This document shows positions 29,010-34,361 of a stretch of 64,000 bases of DNA, piece by piece (within the stretch, counting starts at the first letter, position 1; each line of letters begins with the position of its first letter). This DNA comes from Pseudomonadota bacterium (GTDB lineage: Bacteria > Pseudomonadota > Alphaproteobacteria > Micavibrionales > Micavibrionaceae), in the NCBI GenBank assembly GCA_029558635.1, contig JAKQEE010000052.1, forward strand, positions 204,860-268,859. The letters are read 5' to 3'. The notes under the pieces were generated by a model. It made no database searches and was not told the origin of the DNA. It saw only the letters and a program-made list of their open reading frames with translations. The position numbers were made by a program, and so were the translations under genes.

Positions 29010-29690
29010 ATGTCTCTCATGTCCGCATCATCTGCTCTGCGTAAAGCTGCTTATGCCTTGCCGCTGGCGTTTGCTTTGGCTGCGGGAACGGCGAGTGCCG
29101 GTGGGTTGGATGCAGGAACATGCTACAAGCGCCCAGTTGTTGCGAGCGTCATGGGTGATGAGTCCCAATCTATGCTTATGGCTGGGAATAGAGATGCATC
29201 GGAAGTAGAAAACCGCAACGCAAATGCGTTTTTTATGAATGATGATGGCTCAGGTTATGTGATTGAAGGGGGCGCGCCGTTGGGTGTCAAGCCATCGCCG
29301 GACAGCAAGTCTTGCGTAGCCTACGCTTTTAATCATGGACACGCATACAACCCTAATGATCCTATGCCTGCGTGGGCAAAGAAGATTAAAGCTGTTGGTA
29401 GTGCTGATATTCAGAAATCATACAAGAATGGGGCGCGTATTATTTTTGGGGCACGAACCTACTCCGTGGGAATGGATGGGAAAGAGGTTCCTGGGAAGCA
29501 TCTGGTTGTGTTGAAGGCTGGTTCTGAGGCCTTTGTATGGACAGTTGATCCTGAAGGTATCCCAGGTGTGGGGTTTGAAATGAAAGATGTTCAAATTTTG
29601 CCCAAGATGGCTGAGTTGATGAACAAACCTCCGGCAGTATCTTCTGTCGCGGGCGACACGGTTGCTATGGCATCTCCCACAGTCAGATAG
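29010..29690 (+). CDS. secreted hypothetical protein
   Basis: Signal peptide ...ALPLAFALAAGTASA. 226 aa with no recognisable motif. Confidence 0.55.
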   Translation: MSLMSASSALRKAAYALPLAFALAAGTASAGGLDAGTCYKRPVVASVMGDESQSMLMAGNRDASEVENRNANAFFMNDDGSGYVIEGGAPLGVKPSPDSKSCVAYAFNHGHAYNPNDPMPAWAKKIKAVGSADIQKSYKNGARIIFGARTYSVGMDGKEVPGKHLVVLKAGSEAFVWTVDPEGIPGVGFEMKDVQILPKMAELMNKPPAVSSVAGDTVAMASPTVR

Positions 29691-29700
29691 TGTTTTGAGA

Positions 29701-30807
29701 TTAGAAAAAAGCGGACTGCATTGAAGCAACGTTTGTTGTGTTGGCGGCCACTTGGCGGTTTGATATGGGCGTTTGATTGAGTTGTGGGGGGGGCTCTGAA
29801 TTGGATTTGATTCCCGAGTGTTGGTTGAAGGATTTTGTCGGGTTTTGGTCGGCTGTGATCTCGCAAGATGCACTCATGGCAAATTGTGGTGAGTTACTGG
29901 TGTTGGCGCAGGGCAACTTTGCATCATCTGCTCTTTCAGATGTTGAGTCTTTTTGAGAGCCGTTGCGTTGTGTTATGTTTTCAGATGTTAGAGTTTGGAT
30001 GTGTCCGGATTCTTCATTTTCTGCCCGATGATCCAACCAATTCACTTGGTCTTGTGTTAACAATCCATCGTGGATCATTTGTTCGCGTTGTCTTTGTTTT
30101 TCTGCTTCGCTAAGGCTGGGGTCGGCCATCATGTTGCGGTAGCGGAGCATGTTTTTATAGAGTTTCTTCTTATCCTTTGGATCGGCAATGCCTTGATCGA
30201 CCATATCGTCGAACGTGTTGTCCCAGTTATCAAGCATATTGTCCAAGCTATCGACGATGTCCAGAACAGAGAGGCTTCTACCATCTGCCGTTCTAATACG
30301 CTGATTGCTCAATATATCCCGATCTTGCTGGCTTAGTTCTTTCCGCTGTTGTTCCATTTTTTCTTCGTGGGCGTCGATCATGGCTTCGGCGAGGGAGGCT
30401 TCGAGTCTCTTTTGTTTCTTTTCTTCTTCGCTCAGGCCTGCGAATTCGTCGAACAGGTCGTCGAGATAGCTAAAATAATTGTTGGTGCGGTTTTCAACTG
30501 CGTAGCCGTTGATGGTCGGGTCGTTGGCCTGAACCAATTGGTCGGGATTATATTGTTCGTAAATTCGTTCGGCTGCACGGTTGCTGTTAGGGGAGAATGT
30601 GCTCAACACTTCTCCGACAGACATATTTGCAATCGAGGGATCTTCGCCTTTGGGTGACGGTTCGGGAGCTGCGGCGGTTGTTTCAACTCCGAGCTCCAGA
30701 TTCTCATCGGTCGCATTATCCGCGACCGGATTGTTCCGTTCTAAGACTGCCATTTTCTCCCCCCGGAGAAGTCTTGTTATTTTGAAGTCCATAGAGCGTT
30801 GGCCCAT
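29701..30807 (-). CDS. hypothetical acidic coiled-coil protein
   Basis: A 368-aa ORF rich in D/E/Q/N with coiled-coil-like stretches (EEEKKQKRLEASLAEAMIDAHEEKMEQQRKEL). A likelier start is M19 at 30753, which follows GGGGGAGAAA. Confidence 0.55.
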   Translation of the reverse strand: MGQRSMDFKITRLLRGEKMAVLERNNPVADNATDENLELGVETTAAAPEPSPKGEDPSIANMSVGEVLSTFSPNSNRAAERIYEQYNPDQLVQANDPTINGYAVENRTNNYFSYLDDLFDEFAGLSEEEKKQKRLEASLAEAMIDAHEEKMEQQRKELSQQDRDILSNQRIRTADGRSLSVLDIVDSLDNMLDNWDNTFDDMVDQGIADPKDKKKLYKNMLRYRNMMADPSLSEAEKQRQREQMIHDGLLTQDQVNWLDHRAENEESGHIQTLTSENITQRNGSQKDSTSERADDAKLPCANTSNSPQFAMSASCEITADQNPTKSFNQHSGIKSNSEPPPQLNQTPISNRQVAANTTNVASMQSAFF

Positions 30808-31300
30808 AAGATCTTCTTACAGGTTATTTATATATGAAAAATATTGATGACAAATTAAGATTGGACAGAATCCAATATATTTTTATGAAAATATATTGGG
30901 AGTCCGTCTCTATAAGGGGCTGAGAAACAGCCTACATATTTATAATATATCAATAGTTGATAGATTGCAATATATTTTTGCATCTCTATCCTATTGATAT
31001 TCAATAAAATATCAAAAAAGATTGATTGAAATATGTGCGGCTCGTTGGATTTTTGGCAAAAAAGGATCAGCATTTTCATGTTGGGTTACGGTTGGCAGCA
31101 GATGGCTGTTCTTGACAATGTGACCGGACTGACAGATGAGGCTGCTTTGAAAACCAGTGGAAATTTGGTTGTATAGCCTTGGAAATAGATGGTTTGCGCA
31201 TTTGGGGATAGAATGGGCCTAATAGAATCCTCCAAAGTGATAATGTACTTTACGAATGGTTCTTATCAGAAAAAGCGAACATAAGGCTGGGCCTATTAAG

Positions 31301-31632
31301 TGGTGCGGGCGGGGGGACTTGAACCCCCACAGGCCTTGCGGCCCTACGGATTTTCTTACCATCTACGGCTTTCGCCGCGCTCGTGAGTCACGAGTTTGTG
31401 GTCTGGACTATCCCTTCACCGTTGCAAAGTTCTTTGCTCTAGGTGCTGCCCGTCTAGTCTCTACACCTTCCTTTAGCCCGTTAGGGCTTTAGGCTTGGCT
31501 CGGGATTGCCATGGGCTGCTCGCCAGCCTGTAAGGTTTCCCCGAATTTGAGCAGTTCTGCATCAAAGGTTTCCCGATGAGCACTCAATATTTTGTCTAAG
31601 TCCGTTGCGTCTACCGATTTCGCCACGCCCGC
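31301..31632 (-). tRNA. tRNA-Leu(UAA) interrupted by a group I intron
   Basis: The 5' exon runs 31632->31598: GCGGGCGTGGCGAAATCGGTAGACGCAACGGACTT. The 3' exon runs 31354->31301: AAAATCCGTAGGGCCGCAAGGCCTGTGGGGGTTCAAGTCCCCCCGCCCGCACCA. Joined, they give a canonical 89-nt class II tRNA. The acceptor stem is GCGGGCG/CGCCCGC, the anticodon stem is ACGGA/TCCGT, the loop is CUUAAAA, and the variable arm carries a GCAA loop. Confidence 0.9.
31355..31597 (-). ncRNA. group I intron (IC3-like), 243 nt, no ORF
   Basis: Core blocks on the minus strand are CAAATTCGGGGAAACC (31549-31534), ATGGCAATCCCGAGCCAAGCC (31512-31492), GAAGGTGTAGAGACTAGACGGGCAGCACCT (31470-31441) and GGGATAGTCCAGACC (31414-31400). 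GACTA/TAGTC forms P7. A GCGGC-GAAA-GCCGT hairpin and a terminal G are also present. Confidence 0.85.
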
Positions 31633-31688: not shown

Positions 31689-32876
31689 TCAGGTATCTGA
31701 TTGTTTTTGCGTGTCATTTTTTACAGGATTTACTCTGCGAACATTGATTGCGGCGGCATTAATACTTGTCTTGATGTGGGAAGCGTAGAAATTCTCGATC
31801 ATTTCGACGCTGGTTCGGCAGTTTTTAGCTATCTGGTAAATATCGGCTCCCTCCATCAGGCGAAGGCAGATATAGGTATGCCTGAGGCTGTAGGCTGTCC
31901 GGCGGCGGCCCTCGCGGTCAAATTTCAAATTTTCCTCTGTGAGGATGGCGTTGAACAGCTCCCGATGGGTCTTAGGGAAGATCAGGTCTGTTTTTTGCGG
32001 ATTGTTTCTCTCAATAAGGCGTTTGAATGGGAGGACTGCTCCCGTCATGCTTTTGCAATAGCCAACCCCTCGTTTACCTCTCACGCTAATTTCAAGAATT
32101 GTCTCGCCTGTGTCCAAGTCCTCGACAATTTCTACGTCACGATATTCGAGGCGTGACGCTTCGTCAGGGCGCAGTCCGGTATTCGCCATGAACAATACAT
32201 AGTCATGTAATTGCTCCGATTCCCATTTGTAACGGGGGCGGGTAGGGTGATGCGCTCTTTTCCGCGTGGCTTCATAGAGCTGCTTATATTCTTCGGGGGA
32301 AAACCATGCGCGGTGAGAGATTTTGGCTGAGGCACGGTATGGCTCCGAAAAATCCGGAAGATGATCCAGCCAGTCATGCCGTAGGGCCGTTTTGAGAATC
32401 TGCCGTAAGGCGACGATTTCTTGGTGGATGGTATTTCTCGCGGGAGGCTTCCCCCATTTTGCCATGGCTTTTTCGCGGCGATGGATTCTGTATTCCTGAA
32501 TAAGGCCCGCTGTGATCTCGGTCAGTCCCTTATTCCCGAAAAAGGGAAGAAGGTGATTTTTGATTCGAAGGTTTTGTTGTTCGACGTGGCGCTTGCTGCG
32601 CTGACCTTCGGTTATCAATTCGTATTCCCGTACAAAAAGGTCGGCGGCTTTTTTGAAGGTCTTTTCGTTCTTCAATTCTCCGCTGCGTTTCTTGTTGTGG
32701 AGATCAAGGAACCAGTCTTCGGCAAAGTCTTTTGCTTTGGCGAGACTTTCTTCTTTTGTACTGGTGCGCCAGTTCTTTCCGTTCAGATATGTAGAGCACT
32801 GCCAACAGGTGCTGTTCTCTCTTTTATAAACATGGAGCTTTCCGCCCATGAGGGAGTGTTTTGCTGTGTATGCCAT
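31689..32876 (-). CDS. int: tyrosine-type site-specific integrase
   Basis: 395 aa. The catalytic pattern is TGLRPDEASRL (Arg), AYSLRHTYICLRL (HxxR) and the terminal NFYASH (Tyr). It lies adjacent to a tRNA gene. Confidence 0.9.
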   Translation of the reverse strand: MAYTAKHSLMGGKLHVYKRENSTCWQCSTYLNGKNWRTSTKEESLAKAKDFAEDWFLDLHNKKRSGELKNEKTFKKAADLFVREYELITEGQRSKRHVEQQNLRIKNHLLPFFGNKGLTEITAGLIQEYRIHRREKAMAKWGKPPARNTIHQEIVALRQILKTALRHDWLDHLPDFSEPYRASAKISHRAWFSPEEYKQLYEATRKRAHHPTRPRYKWESEQLHDYVLFMANTGLRPDEASRLEYRDVEIVEDLDTGETILEISVRGKRGVGYCKSMTGAVLPFKRLIERNNPQKTDLIFPKTHRELFNAILTEENLKFDREGRRRTAYSLRHTYICLRLMEGADIYQIAKNCRTSVEMIENFYASHIKTSINAAAINVRRVNPVKNDTQKQSDT

Positions 32877-33003
32877 AATTCGCCCCTATGTGTCATTTTG
32901 TGTAAGACTTGTGTAAGTCTAAAATAGGGTGAATTTCATGTCAAATTTGATGCTAAATATTTGAATTCATTATATTTATAAATTATGTATTTTTGTTCTT
33001 TTA

Positions 33004-33045
33004 AGATTTTAAGTCTGCTGCGTCTACCTGTTTCGCCACGGGGCC
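33004..33045 (-). pseudogene. intronless 5'-half fragment of a second tRNA-Leu(UAA)
   Basis: The reverse complement is GGCCCCGTGGCGAAACAGGTAGACGCAGCAGACTTAAAATCT. This covers the acceptor 5' strand, the D arm, anticodon stem GCAGA, an uninterrupted loop CTTAAAA and the first 3 nt of the return strand, after which homology stops. It matches the spliced form of the intact gene at 33 of 41 positions. Confidence 0.7.
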
Positions 33046-33089: not shown

Positions 33090-33422
33090 TCATAGCACCG
33101 CGAGAATGTTGTTTAGAGCTTCGCGGCCTTTATCGGTCAGAAAAAGTTCCTTTTTGCGGCGTTCGGTCTCGGAAATCTTCATCGTGATGAATTCATAAGG
33201 AATCCCTTTCTGGCGGTAGCTTGAAAGGGCGCCGACTATCCTTGAAACCGTCGAGAGGGCCAGCCCCGTTTTTTCAGAGAGATCGGTTAAGGAGCAGCCT
33301 TCGTTGCGGGCGATTTCGGATAGGCAAATGGCGTATTGGATTGGGAATTCGGCGTCAATTCTCTGCAACTGGGAGAGAAGGGCTAACAGAGTCTCATTCT
33401 TCTTTGTATCGAGTTGTGTCAT
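33090..33422 (-). CDS. MarR-like winged-helix transcriptional regulator
   Basis: 110 aa. The segment CSLTDLSEKTGLALSTVSRIVGAL followed by a wing (ISETERRKKELFLTDKGREAL) fits the MarR wHTH layout. Confidence 0.7.
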   Translation of the reverse strand: MTQLDTKKNETLLALLSQLQRIDAEFPIQYAICLSEIARNEGCSLTDLSEKTGLALSTVSRIVGALSSYRQKGIPYEFITMKISETERRKKELFLTDKGREALNNILAVL

Positions 33423-33779: not shown

Positions 33780-34361
33780 TTATATAGTAATTATTGATTT
33801 GTGGTAAGAAATATTATTTTCATAATTTAGCATTTTTGCGCATATTACAAGTTCGTTAAGGTTTTTTATTACAATCGGTGGGTGTGAAATCACTTTCTTT
33901 CCCTGAGGGGTCTGTAGCACAATACAGGATAGGCTGTGGGCTGATTCCAGAGATAGGGTCAGGCAAGCCTGCGGCAAAAAAGCCGATCCGTCGAGCCGCG
34001 CCATAGAGATGTCGGTCGCTCCAAACGTGGTGTCCAGAAAATTGCAGCCCAGAAGGTCGGAGTAGCAGAGGCAAGTGTCGATCATTCGGGCGCCGGAAAA
34101 ATTGCAGTGTTTGAGGACGCTTTCCGACATATTGGCGCCGGTCAGGTCGGCGTTTGTAAAGTTGGCGTGCATGATGTGGGCGTTGTCAAGATTGGCCCCT
34201 TTGAGACTTGCGCCGGTCAGGTCGATTCCGTCGAGTATAATCCCTTCCTGAATAGCTGTTTCCAAGGCGGCGCGAAGGGTCGGATGCTCTCCGGCATAGA
34301 GAAGTACACCCGTGCGGGTGGTTAGTTTTTGTTCCATTTCTTTCTCCCAGTTAGGTTTCAC
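33780..34361 (-). CDS. pentapeptide-repeat protein
   Basis: The tandem A(D/N)LXX repeats are easily read: IDLTGASLKGANLDNAHIMHANFTNADLTGANMSESVLKHCNFSGARMIDTCLCYSDLLGCNFLDTTF. 193 aa. Confidence 0.85.
   Translation of the reverse strand: MKPNWEKEMEQKLTTRTGVLLYAGEHPTLRAALETAIQEGIILDGIDLTGASLKGANLDNAHIMHANFTNADLTGANMSESVLKHCNFSGARMIDTCLCYSDLLGCNFLDTTFGATDISMARLDGSAFLPQACLTLSLESAHSLSCIVLQTPQGKKVISHPPIVIKNLNELVICAKMLNYENNISYHKSIITI

What the first reader, a model, noticed from the sequence alone, without database searches (positions are those of the whole stretch)
31301..31632. tRNA-Leu(UAA) gene split by a 243-nt group I intron at the cyanobacterial/plastid position, in an alphaproteobacterium-like genome
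On the minus strand, 31632->31598 is a perfect tRNA 5' half: the acceptor strand, the D arm, stem ACGGA and loop bases CUU. 31354->31301 is the matching 3' half. It reads AAAA, stem UCCGU, a long variable arm with a GCAA loop, T arm GGGGG/UUCAAGU/CCCCC, acceptor CGCCCGC, then A and CCA. Between U34 and A35 lie 243 nt that carry the group I catalytic core. The blocks are CAAAUUCGGGGAAACC, AUGGCAAUCCCGAGCCAAGCC, GAAGGUGUAGAGACUAGACGGGCAGCACCU and GGGAUAGUCCAGACC, with GACUA/UAGUC forming P7. A GCGGC-GAAA-GCCGU hairpin and a terminal G are also present. Intron nt 13-16 (GAGU) can pair with the exon end ACUU, which puts the canonical U.G wobble at the 5' splice site. These blocks closely match what I remember of the Azoarcus tRNA-Ile and Anabaena/plastid tRNA-Leu(UAA) IC3 introns. 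The insertion point is the one used by the cyanobacterial/plastid intron. As far as I recall, the tRNA introns described in alphaproteobacteria are in tRNA-Arg(CCU), so this host-intron combination would be unusual and suggests horizontal acquisition. This fits its position beside an integrase. ORF-based annotation shows only a spurious 78-aa ORF (31256..31492). Intron-naive tRNA scanners would miss what may be the only tRNA-Leu(UAA).
Basis: partly seen in the sequence, partly recalled or inferred. Interest (0 to 1): 0.85.

Follow-up and report, generated by a model that had tools for sequence, protein, structure and literature searches.

The report
Intron-split tRNA-Leu carried beside an integrase
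The window really does hold a leucine tRNA gene interrupted by a self-splicing group I intron, which is common in this bacterial class, but here it probably replaces the cell's own leucine tRNA gene, which the neighbouring integrase element cut in half.

Summary
On the minus strand, 31632..31301 is a tRNA-Leu(UAA) gene split after U34 by a 243-nt group I intron. Support comes from Rfam Intron_gpI (55.5 bits), ARAGORN in intron mode, and P1-P9 covariation across 58 homologues.

The claim of rarity is not supported. A truncated scan of species genomes returned 58 tRNA-Leu(UAA) genes split at the same site. Many are in named Alphaproteobacteria and Acidobacteriota. The window's intron is 77-83% identical to these and only 57% identical to a cyanobacterial one.

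The integrase link is real and specific.
- A truncated, intronless copy (positions 1-41) of a different tRNA-Leu(UAA) lies at 33045..33005, just beyond the integrase.
- That type is intact next to homologous integrases in Micavibrio and L123.
- Integrase homologues (at least 7,308 proteins) usually show the same order: fragment, integrase, complete tRNA-Leu. That tRNA is intron-split in 40 of 68 loci.
- One close relative (L215) has the same tRNA without the intron.

The best reading is a proteobacterial and acidobacterial counterpart of mycobacteriophage "tRNA-dependent lysogeny". The element disrupts the host tRNA and supplies a replacement, which here carries an intron. The far end of the island was not found.

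The parts
31598..31632 (-). tRNA-Leu(UAA) 5' exon (positions 1-35: acceptor GCGGGCG, D arm, anticodon stem ACGGA, loop CUU)
   Evidence: Sequence; ARAGORN with intron search and on the spliced sequence.
31355..31597 (-). 243-nt group I intron (P1-P9; omega-G at 31355)
   Evidence: Rfam Intron_gpI at 55.5 bits, above the gathering score of 50. Explicit helix model. Covariation on 58 homologues. Matches 125 of 126 columns that are at least 90% conserved.
31301..31354 (-). tRNA-Leu(UAA) 3' exon (AAAA, stem UCCGU, long variable arm, T arm, acceptor CGCCCGC, A73, encoded CCA)
31582..31601 (-). P1 helix (31601..31596 with 31587..31582). The U.G wobble pairs U-1 (31598) with G (31585).
   Evidence: The U.G pair is present in 58 of 58 homologues and helix 1 is 98% paired.
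31406..31554 (-). Catalytic core. P3 is 31554-31549 with 31451-31446. P4 is 31544-31539 with 31505-31500. P6 is 31499-31497 with 31467-31465. P7 is 31459-31455 with 31410-31406 (pseudoknot with P3). P8 is 31445-31442 with 31420-31417.
   Evidence: P3, P4, P6 and P7 are 100% paired and P8 99.6% paired, with compensatory changes in P3, P4, P5, P6a and P8a.
31358..31402 (-). P9.0/P9a/P9b domain, with the GAAA tetraloop hairpin GCGGC-GAAA-GCCGU
   Evidence: P9b 99.6% paired with compensatory changes; P9.0 94.8% paired.
31689..32876 (-). Tyrosine integrase (395 aa), same strand as the tRNA, with its stop codon 56 nt upstream of the tRNA start
   Evidence: PHROG integrase family, E = 2.5e-33. Weak Pfam Phage_integrase and SAM-like hits. 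NCBI name 'site-specific integrase'. At least 7,308 homologues at E <= 1e-30. The family sits beside tRNA-Leu genes.
32877..33004 (-). AT-rich arm between the tRNA fragment and the integrase start. It holds two CTTACACA repeats (32917-32910 and 32906-32899) and a promoter-like site (32944..32916).
   Evidence: The repeats are conserved in L215, L216, Micavibrio and L123.
33005..33045 (-). Truncated, intronless 5' part (positions 1-41) of a different, native-type tRNA-Leu(UAA): GGCCCCGUGGCGAAACAGGUAGACGCAGCAGACUUAAAAUC. Inferred to be the attL side of the integrase element.
   Evidence: It is 90% identical to positions 1-41 of the intact tRNA upstream of the integrase in L123.
29010..31300 (.). 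Possible island cargo. Three ORFs with no family match (30855-31079 on the minus strand, 29701-30807 on the minus strand, 29010-29690 on the plus strand) lie in a lower-GC stretch between the tRNA and thrS. Low confidence; no distal att repeat was found.
   Evidence: The downstream content differs in relatives L215 and L216.
31256..31492 (+). Spurious 78-aa ORF on the strand opposite the intron
   Evidence: No Pfam family. A gene caller called it in L211.

Best explanation
SHOWN IN SILICO. Window 31632..31301 (minus strand) is a tRNA-Leu(UAA) gene whose anticodon loop is interrupted between U34 and A35 by a 243-nt group I intron of the bacterial tRNA (IC3-like) family.

EXPECTED MECHANISM (established group I chemistry, not tested here). 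The pre-tRNA folds P1-P9. An exogenous guanosine bound in P7 attacks the phosphate after the U of the U.G wobble in P1. The terminal G (31355) then takes the G site, and the freed 3'-OH of exon 1 attacks the 3' splice site. This ligates the exons into an 89-nt tRNA-Leu(UAA).

INFERRED (about 0.6). This split gene is not the lineage's original tRNA-Leu(UAA). It is the replacement tRNA of an integrase element. The tyrosine integrase directly upstream belongs to a family that recombines in the anticodon loop of tRNA-Leu genes.
- In Micavibrio and L123, the element carries the tRNA's 3' part and rebuilds the native gene.
- In the window, L215 and L216, the similarity stops at position 41. The native gene is left as a dead 1-41 stump at 33045..33005.
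- A complete tRNA-Leu(UAA) of foreign type (acceptor GCGGGCG/CGCCCGC) sits just after the integrase and supplies the function.

This is the logic of 'tRNA-dependent lysogeny' described for actinobacteriophages, here with an intron in the replacement tRNA. The intron is not obligatory for the module, because close relative L215 has the same tRNA without it.
For: Intron and tRNA:
- ARAGORN, Rfam, fold z-score, covariation and conservation support both.

Family context:
- 58 of 120 genome hits are tRNA-Leu(UAA) split at the same site.
- The nearest introns are 77-83% identical and are proteobacterial, acidobacterial or metagenomic.

Integrase module:
- Full-length homologues (49-68% aa) lie directly 5' of split tRNA-Leu genes in nine labelled genome loci, most of them Alphaproteobacteria plus some Acidobacteriota.
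- In 80 loci picked by integrase homology alone, an intronless tRNA-Leu 1-41 fragment lies 125-155 nt upstream of the integrase in nearly all.
- A complete tRNA-Leu follows the integrase. It is split in 40 of the 68 loci with enough sequence.
- The fragments have diverse acceptor strands. The downstream tRNA nearly always has GCGGGCG/CGCCCGC.
- In the window the fragment cannot pair with the resident 3' half. Acceptor pairing is 3 of 7, and the anticodon stem GCAGA does not match UCCGU.

Classical relatives:
- Micavibrio aeruginosavorus has an intact GGCCCCG-type tRNA, then the integrase (78% aa), about 9 kb of cargo, and a repeat of tRNA positions 32-87.
- L123 has the same intact tRNA upstream of its integrase.
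- The alignment shows the window, L215 and L216 diverging exactly after position 41.

Cargo:
- DNA downstream of the tRNA is variable. It holds defence or restriction-modification genes in L216 and L218-L220.
- L178 and L193 share the upstream flank and the module but not the downstream DNA.

Known analogue:
- Guerrero-Bustamante and Hatfull 2024, PMC10865867. Related integrases have either a 43-bp core that rebuilds the tRNA or an 8-10-bp core that does not, and the phage then carries its own tRNA.
Against: - No splicing data exist; activity is inferred.
- The predicted distal junction (short core plus native tRNA positions 42-87) was not found. It is absent from the window's 31 kb downstream, from 10 kb downstream in L216 and L218-L220, and from 2.5 kb downstream in the metagenome loci.
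- In the window, thrS starts only about 2.5 kb beyond the tRNA, so the island must be small or eroded.
- All sampled strains of this population carry the module, so no empty site was seen.
- Some loci fit ordinary reconstruction without any replacement. These are L174, L101, L122 and L084, where fragment and resident tRNA are fully compatible.
- Most split tRNA-Leu genes in the intron-selected sample have no integrase nearby. Only 13 of 86 loci with enough upstream sequence had an integrase hit.
- Host assignments for the metagenome loci are inferred, not known.
Confidence: 0.7

Rival explanations
1. The split tRNA-Leu(UAA) is the host's own, vertically inherited gene. The integrase is an ordinary tRNA-targeting island integrase that rebuilt the gene on integration, and the upstream 1-41 piece is simply the displaced 5' fragment of that same gene.
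For: L174 shows exactly this arrangement for an intronless tRNA-Leu(CAA), with identical 42-nt repeats. In L101, L122 and L084 the fragment is fully compatible with the resident tRNA. Most split tRNA-Leu genes have no integrase nearby. The GCGGGCG type is common in Alphaproteobacteria.
Against: In the window the fragment's acceptor strand (GGCCCCG) and anticodon stem (GCAGA) cannot pair with the resident 3' half (CGCCCGC, UCCGU). The fragment's type is the intact tRNA of the relatives Micavibrio and L123. In L175 and L192 the fragment has anticodon CAA while the resident tRNA has UAA. A single reciprocal exchange cannot produce these pairs.
Confidence: 0.2
2. The intron was recently transferred from a cyanobacterium or plastid-type tRNA-Leu(UAA) gene into an alphaproteobacterium, as the shared insertion site suggested to the first reader.
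For: The insertion site (CUU/AAAA) and the conserved IC3-type core blocks are the same.
Against: The intron is only 57% identical to the Synechococcus Leu.3Ug seed. That is lower than to the Azoarcus Ile intron (62%) or an alphaproteobacterial Arg intron (63%). It is 77-83% identical to non-cyanobacterial tRNA-Leu introns. Those introns are widespread in Alphaproteobacteria and Acidobacteriota.
Confidence: 0.03
3. The intron or the tRNA is a decaying, non-functional relic, and another gene supplies tRNA-Leu(UAA).
For: P2 has two mismatches (U.U and C.U) in the family register. There are no expression data. The rest of the genome was not searched.
Against: The window matches 125 of 126 columns that are at least 90% conserved. 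All core helices are intact. The cloverleaf is perfect, with A73 and CCA. The only other tRNA-Leu(UAA) sequence at the locus is truncated at position 41. P2 has an alternative 7-bp register (read from the sequence).
Confidence: 0.05
4. The intron is kept in the replacement tRNA because it splits the anticodon-loop DNA that the integrase recognises. The replacement gene is then not itself an att site, which prevents deletion of the integrase or re-targeting.
For: The att similarity ends at tRNA position 41, and the Micavibrio repeat starts at position 32, so the core spans the anticodon loop. The intron sits at 34/35, inside it. 40 of the 47 tRNAs found within 400 nt after the integrase are split.
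Against: L215 keeps the fragment, the integrase and an intronless copy of the same tRNA side by side. Nine loci have an intronless tRNA-Leu(CAA) next to the integrase, seven of them among the 68 loci with enough downstream sequence. The sample is biased towards relatives of intron-bearing loci. No biochemistry was done.
Confidence: 0.1

Closest known systems
Leu.3Ug class of bacterial tRNA group I introns (Williams 2020, bioRxiv 10.1101/2020.01.27.920355), including the non-cyanobacterial seed 'Ncf2.Leu.3Ug'
   Same: Same tRNA, same insertion point (CUU/a...g/AAAA), same U-1 and omega-G, and the same P1-P9 layout with GAAA loops in P2 and P9. The window is 78% identical to Ncf2.
   Different: Nothing essential differs. 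The window has a P5a insertion hairpin found in only a subset, and two mismatches in P2.
Cyanobacterial and plastid tRNA-Leu(UAA) intron (Anabaena and Synechococcus type)
   Same: Same host gene and splice site, and homologous core blocks (P3, P4, P6, P7).
   Different: Only 57% identical to the Synechococcus seed. The core reads GGUGUAGAGACUAGACGG here, against GGUGCAGAGACU... in the cyanobacterial seed. The peripheral helices differ.
Azoarcus tRNA-Ile(CAU) IC3 intron, and the alphaproteobacterial tRNA-Arg(CCU) introns (Agrobacterium; Bartonella BbgpI, PMC7717549)
   Same: Same compact IC3-like architecture and near-identical P3-P7 core sequence. BbgpI and the Azoarcus intron self-splice in vitro (the Azoarcus result is from my own knowledge).
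   Different: They sit in different tRNAs and at different loop positions (after position 5 of the loop rather than 3). Overall identity is 62-63%.
tRNA-dependent lysogeny of actinobacteriophages (Guerrero-Bustamante and Hatfull 2024, PMC10865867), e.g. Fionnbharth (tRNA-Lys) and Gaia (tRNA-Leu-CAA)
   Same: [quoted passage not shown] Closely related integrases with a long core rebuild the tRNA instead. Boilgate versus Fionnbharth there corresponds to Micavibrio/L123 versus the window/L215/L216 here.
   Different: These hosts are Alphaproteobacteria, Acidobacteriota and other Gram-negative lineages. No phage genes were seen, and the cargo is defence, restriction-modification or unknown genes. 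The replacement tRNA sits directly after the integrase and usually carries a group I intron. The distal junction was not observed and nothing was tested experimentally.
Classical tRNA-gene genomic islands (Islander/TIGER concept, PMC4383910)
   Same: Integrase next to a tRNA gene, a displaced tRNA fragment as a boundary marker, and variable cargo. The Micavibrio island (L213) and L174 fit the concept fully.
   Different: In the window the tRNA at the junction is not regenerated. Only one boundary (the 1-41 fragment) is visible.

Membership tests
Group I intron (Rfam RF00028) | Covariance-model score at or above the curated threshold | tested here: met
   55.5 bits against a gathering score of 50, E = 2.2e-11, full model 1-253.
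Group I intron (Rfam RF00028) | P1 helix containing the 5' splice site, with a U.G wobble at U-1 | tested here: met
   ACUU|AG pairs with UUGAGU. The U.G pair is present in 58 of 58 homologues and the helix is 98% paired.
Group I intron (Rfam RF00028) | Terminal guanosine (omega-G) before the 3' splice site | tested here: met
   G at 31355. The column is invariant in alignment A1.
Group I intron (Rfam RF00028) | Conserved core helices P3-P8, including the P3/P7 pseudoknot, supported by covariation | tested here: met
   P3, P4, P5, P6 and P7 are 100% paired and P8 99.6% paired. Changes on both sides occur in P3, P4, P5, P6a and P8a. Overall 90.6% of cells are paired against at most 47% in slid controls. 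P6, P7 and P8 never vary, so they neither support nor contradict the model by covariation.
Group I intron (Rfam RF00028) | Self-splicing with guanosine and Mg2+ | not testable with these tools
   Needs in vitro transcription and splicing, or RNA-seq.
IC3 subgroup (bacterial tRNA introns) | Homology to the reference IC3 introns (Azoarcus Ile, Anabaena Leu); compact form with GAAA tetraloops on P2 and P9 | tested here: met
   The window aligns over its whole length with the Azoarcus (62%), Arg (63%) and Leu seeds. GAAA loops in P2 and P9b are nearly invariant. Williams 2020 reports that a group I intron database assigns the four classical tRNA intron types to subgroup IC3. Tetraloop receptors were not examined.
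tRNA-Leu (type II tRNA) | Cloverleaf with a long variable arm, anticodon UAA, discriminator A73 and a 3' CCA | tested here: met
   ARAGORN on the spliced 89-mer. All stems are Watson-Crick apart from one G-U pair at the base of the variable arm.
Tyrosine recombinase / phage integrase | Sequence-profile match and conserved catalytic-domain motifs | tested here: met
   PHROG phrog_1 integrase, E = 2.5e-33. Pfam Phage_integrase scores 22.8 bits, below its 27.1 cut-off, while Phage_int_SAM_5 and SAM_3 score above theirs. Invariant LRPDE, SLRH.Y and Y..H motifs in alignment A3. No solved structure matches by sequence.
Integrated genomic island at a tRNA gene | Two att junctions (direct repeats of part of the tRNA) bounding the element | tested here: not met
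   Only the 1-41 fragment at 33045..33005 was found. No repeat of positions 32/42-87 occurs anywhere in the window. The feature is met in relatives L213 (Micavibrio) and L174.
tRNA-dependent integration ('tRNA-dependent lysogeny') | [quoted passage not shown] | tested here: inconclusive
   The upstream junction is not rebuilt: similarity stops at position 41 while relatives continue to position 87. The other junction was not found, and attP and attB were not observed directly.
tRNA-dependent integration ('tRNA-dependent lysogeny') | [quoted passage not shown] | tested here: inconclusive
   A complete tRNA-Leu(UAA) of a different sequence type follows the integrase in the window and in most family members. 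That it belongs to the element and is required is inferred, not shown.

The most novel reading that the evidence does not exclude
Group I introns of bacterial tRNA-Leu genes lack homing endonucleases. They may spread between phyla mainly by riding inside replacement tRNA genes carried by a very large family of anticodon-loop-targeting integrase islands. The island destroys the resident intronless tRNA-Leu and installs an intron-bearing one. This would explain the long-debated sporadic distribution of these introns. A stronger version holds that the intron is selected because it breaks the integrase's own att core within the replacement gene.
Probability: 0.3. Interest if true: 0.75.

Novelty: new variant of a known kind. 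Interest (0 to 1): 0.45.

Why it matters
The intron itself is one more member of a large, already catalogued class. Its practical value is for annotation. The gene is missed by default tRNA scanners and overlaid with spurious ORFs. It may be this organism's only working tRNA-Leu(UAA), but that was not tested.

The context is more interesting. The split tRNA appears to be a replacement gene delivered by an integrase that cuts the native tRNA-Leu in two. The same fragment-integrase-tRNA module recurs across Alphaproteobacteria, Acidobacteriota and other phyla, often with defence-gene cargo.

If that holds, three things follow.
- tRNA-dependent integration, so far shown only in actinobacteriophages, would extend to a very large family of elements in Gram-negative lineages.
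- There would be a concrete, testable vehicle for horizontal spread of endonuclease-less tRNA introns.
- The window and L215 would provide natural intron-plus and intron-minus alleles of one gene for experiments.

Tried and rejected
1. A cyanobacterial host was considered because a pentapeptide-repeat protein matched HetL and Alr5209 models. It was rejected because NCBI labels the window's exact UvrC and integrase proteins as Alphaproteobacteria and because of Micavibrio synteny.

2. Model A: the element carries exon 1 plus the intron and recombines at positions 36-41, so exon 2 is host DNA. It was rejected because exon 2 always pairs with the resident exon 1 and never with the upstream fragment, in both acceptor and anticodon stems.

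3. Model C: ordinary 5'-type reconstruction into an already split host gene. It was rejected for the window and most metagenome loci for the same reason. It still fits L174, L101, L122 and L084.

4. A search for the native tRNA's 3' remainder found nothing except in Micavibrio and L174. It covered the window, 2.5-kb flanks of about 70 loci and 10-kb flanks of L216 and L218-L220.

5. A search for an empty site using exact flanking proteins showed that all strains of the population carry the module.

6. Some apparent 'fragments' turned out to be neighbouring complete tRNA genes (L113, L010) and were discarded.

7. Literature:
- Searches found no paper linking integrase islands with group-I-split tRNA genes.
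- Paquin 1999 and Vepritskiy 2002 are not held in the library. The Vepritskiy report of a gammaproteobacterial tRNA-Leu(UAA) intron is cited from memory only.
- The phylum table of Williams 2020 is an image and could not be read.

8. ARAGORN mis-places some splice sites, calling Ser(aga) or Phe(aaa). This was corrected with a U-1/omega-G rule for most loci. About 20 'k=0 CG' calls remain unresolved and were not counted as Leu(UAA).
Full report
**1. The observation**

- Exon 1, GCGGGCGTGGCGAAATCGGTAGACGCAACGGACTT, is 31632..31598.
- A 243-nt insert is 31597..31355.
- Exon 2, AAAATCCGTAGGGCCGCAAGGCCTGTGGGGGTTCAAGTCCCCCCGCCCGCACCA, is 31354..31301.

Default ARAGORN finds only a tRNA-Ser in the whole window. 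With intron search it calls tRNA-Leu(taa)i(36,243). The spliced 89-mer folds as a flawless type-II cloverleaf with A73 and an encoded CCA.

Rfam's Intron_gpI model matches 31607..31389 over its full length at 55.5 bits (gathering score 50, E = 2.2e-11). This is the only such hit in 64 kb.

The pseudoknot-free minimum-energy fold recovers P1, P4/P5/P5a, P6a/b, P7, P8/P8a and P9a/b. Its z-score is -3.5, and none of 200 shuffles folds as well.

The 78-aa ORF at 31256..31492 exists on the opposite strand and has no family match. Public gene callers placed small spurious ORFs there.

**2. Structure test with relatives**

I scanned one genome per species with the core pattern GGTGTAGAGACTAGACGGNNNNCACC, which excludes the classical cyanobacterial trnL introns.

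I ran ARAGORN with intron search and refined the splice site by requiring U-1 and omega-G. This classified 58 loci as tRNA-Leu(UAA) split CUU/AAAA, exactly as in the window. Another 10 were Arg(CCU), 11 were Met or fMet at loop position 2, and 4 were CAU at position 5, with a few other types.

I aligned the window with 57 of the Leu introns. I then wrote an explicit P1-P9 model on the window sequence, with P7 as a pseudoknot. Pair counting gave the following.
- 90.6% of cells form standard pairs, against 27.6-47.0% when partners are slid.
- 41 pairs change on both sides.
- No shuffle of 500 reaches any observed measure.
- P1 is 98% paired, with the splice-site U.G in 58 of 58 sequences.
- P3, P4, P5, P6 and P7 are 100% paired. 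P8 and P9b are 99.6% paired.
- Compensatory changes occur in P2, P3, P4, P5, P6a, P8a, P9.0 and P9b.
- The poorly paired helices lie in length-variable loops, where the alignment is unreliable.

The window agrees with the family at 125 of 126 columns that are at least 90% conserved. I conclude that this is a bona fide, apparently intact group I intron. Splicing itself was not tested.

**3. Is the host-intron combination unusual?**

It is not. NCBI names the window's exact UvrC and integrase proteins 'MAG TPA ... [Alphaproteobacteria bacterium]'. The window is part of a 780-kb JGI contig.

The 58 identically split tRNA-Leu(UAA) genes include named Alphaproteobacteria:
- Reyranella soli
- two Azospirillum
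- Rhizobium
- Sphingobium cupriresistens
- Sphingomonas
- Bradyrhizobium
- Methylocella
- Poseidonocella pacifica
- Novosphingobium
- Devosiaceae
- Caulobacteraceae

They also include Beta- and Gammaproteobacteria, many Acidobacteriota, Binatia and a Chitinophagaceae.

Williams (2020, bioRxiv 10.1101/2020.01.27.920355) reported 5,292 group-I-split bacterial tRNA genes of 21 types. His seed alignment contains a Leu.3Ug intron (Ncf2) that is 78% identical to the window's.

That literature is incomplete relative to the genome data.

The window's intron is most similar to introns of Rhizobiaceae, Bradyrhizobium, Rhizobium, Sphingomonas and Reyranella (77-81%) and to several metagenomic ones (up to 83%). 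It is only 57% identical to the Synechococcus Leu intron, less than to the Azoarcus Ile (62%) or Arg(CCU) (63%) seeds. A recent cyanobacterial origin is therefore unlikely.

**4. The integrase is not a bystander**

The ORF at 32876..31689 lies on the same strand as the tRNA and stops 56 nt before it. It is a tyrosine recombinase: PHROG integrase, E = 2.5e-33, with weak Pfam hits.

A 41-nt copy of a tRNA-Leu(UAA) 5' part lies at 33045..33005, 128 nt upstream of the integrase start. It reads GGCCCCGTGGCGAAACAGGTAGACGCAGCAGACTTAAAATC.

It crosses the anticodon loop without an intron and stops at tRNA position 41. Its acceptor strand and anticodon stem cannot pair with the resident 3' exon.

The pattern recurs widely.
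- Full-length integrase homologues (49-68% aa) lie directly 5' of split tRNA-Leu genes in nine of the intron-selected loci (L021, L033, L054, L080, L084, L101, L103, L104, L122). Several others carry partial or deleted copies.
- I sampled 80 metagenome loci by integrase homology alone; at least 574 relatives exist. Nearly all have an intronless tRNA-Leu fragment (positions 1 to about 41, anticodon UAA or CAA) 125-155 nt upstream of the integrase.
- Of the 68 loci with enough downstream sequence, 40 have a split tRNA within 400 nt after the integrase. Seven have an intronless tRNA-Leu(CAA). Among the other 21, five have a split tRNA-Leu(UAA) after 1-1.6 kb of cargo, and L174 and L202 have an intronless tRNA-Leu more than 2 kb downstream. 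The rest have deletions or nothing.
- The fragments carry diverse acceptor strands (GCCCGGA, GCCGGGA, GCGGACG, GGCCCCG and others). The tRNA after the integrase nearly always has GCGGGCG/CGCCCGC.
- In L175 and L192 the fragment has anticodon CAA while the resident tRNA has UAA.

**5. How the integrase works, from relatives**

The family is huge: at least 7,308 proteins at E <= 1e-30. Four relatives with long flanks are informative.

Micavibrio aeruginosavorus ARL-13 (L213; integrase 78% aa):
- An intact, intronless GGCCCCG-type tRNA-Leu(UAA) is followed by the integrase and about 9 kb of cargo.
- A direct repeat of tRNA positions 32-87 then closes the island. This is a classical island with crossover in the anticodon loop.
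- NCBI files Micavibrio under Bdellovibrionota. From my own knowledge, genome phylogeny places it in the Alphaproteobacteria.
- The window's CinA is 60% identical to Micavibrio's, and map-cinA adjacency is shared.

L123 (77% aa) has the same intact tRNA upstream of the integrase.

L216 (76% aa, a Rhodospirillales MAG):
- It shares the window's left flank: uvrC, pentapeptide-repeat protein, HTH protein.
- It has the same native-type tRNA truncated at position 41, then a GCGGGCG-type tRNA after the integrase.
- That tRNA is split by a 229-nt intron that is 78% identical to the window's.

L215 (85% aa):
- It has the same left flank and the same truncated native tRNA.
- Its tRNA after the integrase is intronless and 95.5% identical to the window's spliced tRNA. 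The intron is precisely absent.

The alignment of the five upstream regions shows common sequence through ...GACTTAAAATC. Micavibrio and L123 continue with the tRNA 3' part. The window, L215 and L216 continue with unrelated AT-rich DNA. Homology then returns in an arm that holds two CTTACACA repeats.

L174 shows that the family can also regenerate a tRNA from the 5' side, with identical 42-nt repeats around the integrase and two cargo ORFs.

**6. Interpretation**

The closest described mechanism is tRNA-dependent lysogeny (Guerrero-Bustamante and Hatfull 2024, PMC10865867).
- Related integrases either share a long core with the tRNA and rebuild it, or share only 8-10 bp, destroy the tRNA and carry their own tRNA of the same isotype.
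- One of their examples targets tRNA-Leu-CAA.

The contrast between Micavibrio/L123 and the window/L215/L216 has the same form.

Further support for a conserved left end (arm, integrase, replacement tRNA) followed by variable cargo:
- DNA downstream of the tRNA differs among relatives. It often encodes restriction-modification or abortive-infection genes.
- L178 and L193 share the upstream flank and the module but not the downstream DNA.
- Simple reciprocal models in which part of the split tRNA is host DNA fail. The exons always match each other and not the fragment.

I therefore read the window's split tRNA-Leu(UAA) as a horizontally delivered replacement gene. The native gene is the stump at 33045..33005. 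I put this at about 0.6.

Weak points:
- The predicted distal junction was never seen for this class.
- No empty site was found.
- In the window, thrS lies only 2.5 kb beyond the tRNA.
- Some loci fit ordinary reconstruction.

The intron is frequent but not obligatory in the module. Whether it was gained in the window's lineage or lost in L215 cannot be decided.

**7. Novelty and scoring**

The intron is a new member of a well-known and already catalogued class. On its own the original claim of rarity deserves a low score.

The recurrent fragment-integrase-split-tRNA module is, as far as I could search, undescribed. It resembles a new variant of tRNA-dependent integration.

It also offers a plausible vehicle for spreading endonuclease-less tRNA introns across phyla. 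The same GCGGGCG-type split tRNA occurs in Acidobacteriota, Alphaproteobacteria, Binatia and a gammaproteobacterium.

Overall interest is 0.45.

**8. Caveats**

- The genome pattern excluded cyanobacterial cores by design.
- The integrase-based sample is enriched for relatives of the query alignment.
- The taxonomy of the metagenome loci is unknown.
- About 20 intron-selected loci have unresolved splice-site calls.
- All functional statements are inferences from sequence.

Noticed in passing
window 33005-33045 (minus strand): Truncated, intronless 5' part (positions 1-41) of a second, different tRNA-Leu(UAA) with acceptor GGCCCCG. It lies 128 nt upstream of the integrase start. The same type is intact beside homologous integrases in Micavibrio and L123.
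   Followed up: yes
L215:11256-11343 (Logan SRR33317124 contig; integrase 85% aa to the window's): An intron-minus allele of the window's tRNA-Leu(UAA). It is 95.5% identical to the spliced window tRNA and sits in the same fragment-integrase-tRNA module with the same left synteny. This is a natural intron-plus/intron-minus pair.
   Followed up: partly
L213:9820-20091 (Micavibrio aeruginosavorus ARL-13, CP002382.1): A classical island of about 10 kb. An intact tRNA-Leu(UAA) is followed by the integrase (78% aa), a 1,809-aa RTX-like protein and other cargo, then a direct repeat of tRNA positions 32-87.
   Followed up: partly
L216:11601-21188; L218:11712-12308; L219:13185-21206; L220:12263-21185: Cargo downstream of the integrase and split tRNA is rich in defence genes. 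It includes GmrSD/HNH, Abi_C, SLFN/AlbA_2, MmeI-like methyltransferase, PLD-SNF2 helicase, type I restriction-modification, and DUF499/DUF1156. The module may mark a defence-island hotspot.
   Followed up: no
L012:2967-3442 (Acetobacteraceae MAG): The same architecture for another tRNA. An intronless tRNA-Thr(GGU) fragment (positions 2-41, 100% identical) lies 152 nt upstream of a group-I-split tRNA-Thr, with no integrase between them.
   Followed up: no
window 32899-32917 (minus strand); also L215, L216, L213 and L123 just upstream of the integrase start: Two conserved CTTACACA repeats (ACTTACACAAGNCTTACACA) about 25-40 nt before the integrase start codon. They are candidate arm-type integrase binding sites or an operator. 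A promoter-like TTGACA-17-TAGACT lies at 32944..32916.
   Followed up: partly
L193, L196, L189, L178, L180, L184, L186, L191 and L199, about 10-40 nt after the tRNA or after the integrase: A perfect palindrome, GCCAGGATGGAACCATCCTGGC, followed by GGGGCCGGAACCGGCCC-type hairpins. It is conserved just downstream of the split tRNA, and it remains where the tRNA is deleted. It could be a terminator, a REP-like element or a recombination site.
   Followed up: no
L074:2102-2468; L179 and L180 downstream of the integrase: A decay series of the module. L074 has an internal deletion that fuses the integrase N- and C-terminal remnants. L179 and L180 have deletions that remove exon 1 and the intron and leave only the 3' part of the GCGGGCG-type tRNA.
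   Followed up: partly
L080, L120, L149, L151, L154 and L172: tRNA-Leu(CAA) genes split at the same loop position, some with C rather than U at -1 (CTC|AAAA). This matches the 'Leu.3Cg' class that Williams 2020 flagged as needing a splicing test. Several lie beside the same integrase family.
   Followed up: no
window 33090-33422 and 33780-34361 (minus strand): A small winged-helix (IclR/MarR-like) regulator and a pentapeptide-repeat protein lie between uvrC and the tRNA fragment. This arrangement is conserved in L215 and L216. The regulator matches a PHROG transcriptional-regulator family (E = 5e-14). In Micavibrio an HTH_IclR-like gene lies just beyond the far end of the island.
   Followed up: partly
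window 1-64000: GC skew is positive in every 2-kb bin across the whole window, and GC drops to 0.45 at 30-34 kb around the integrase-tRNA module.
   Followed up: no
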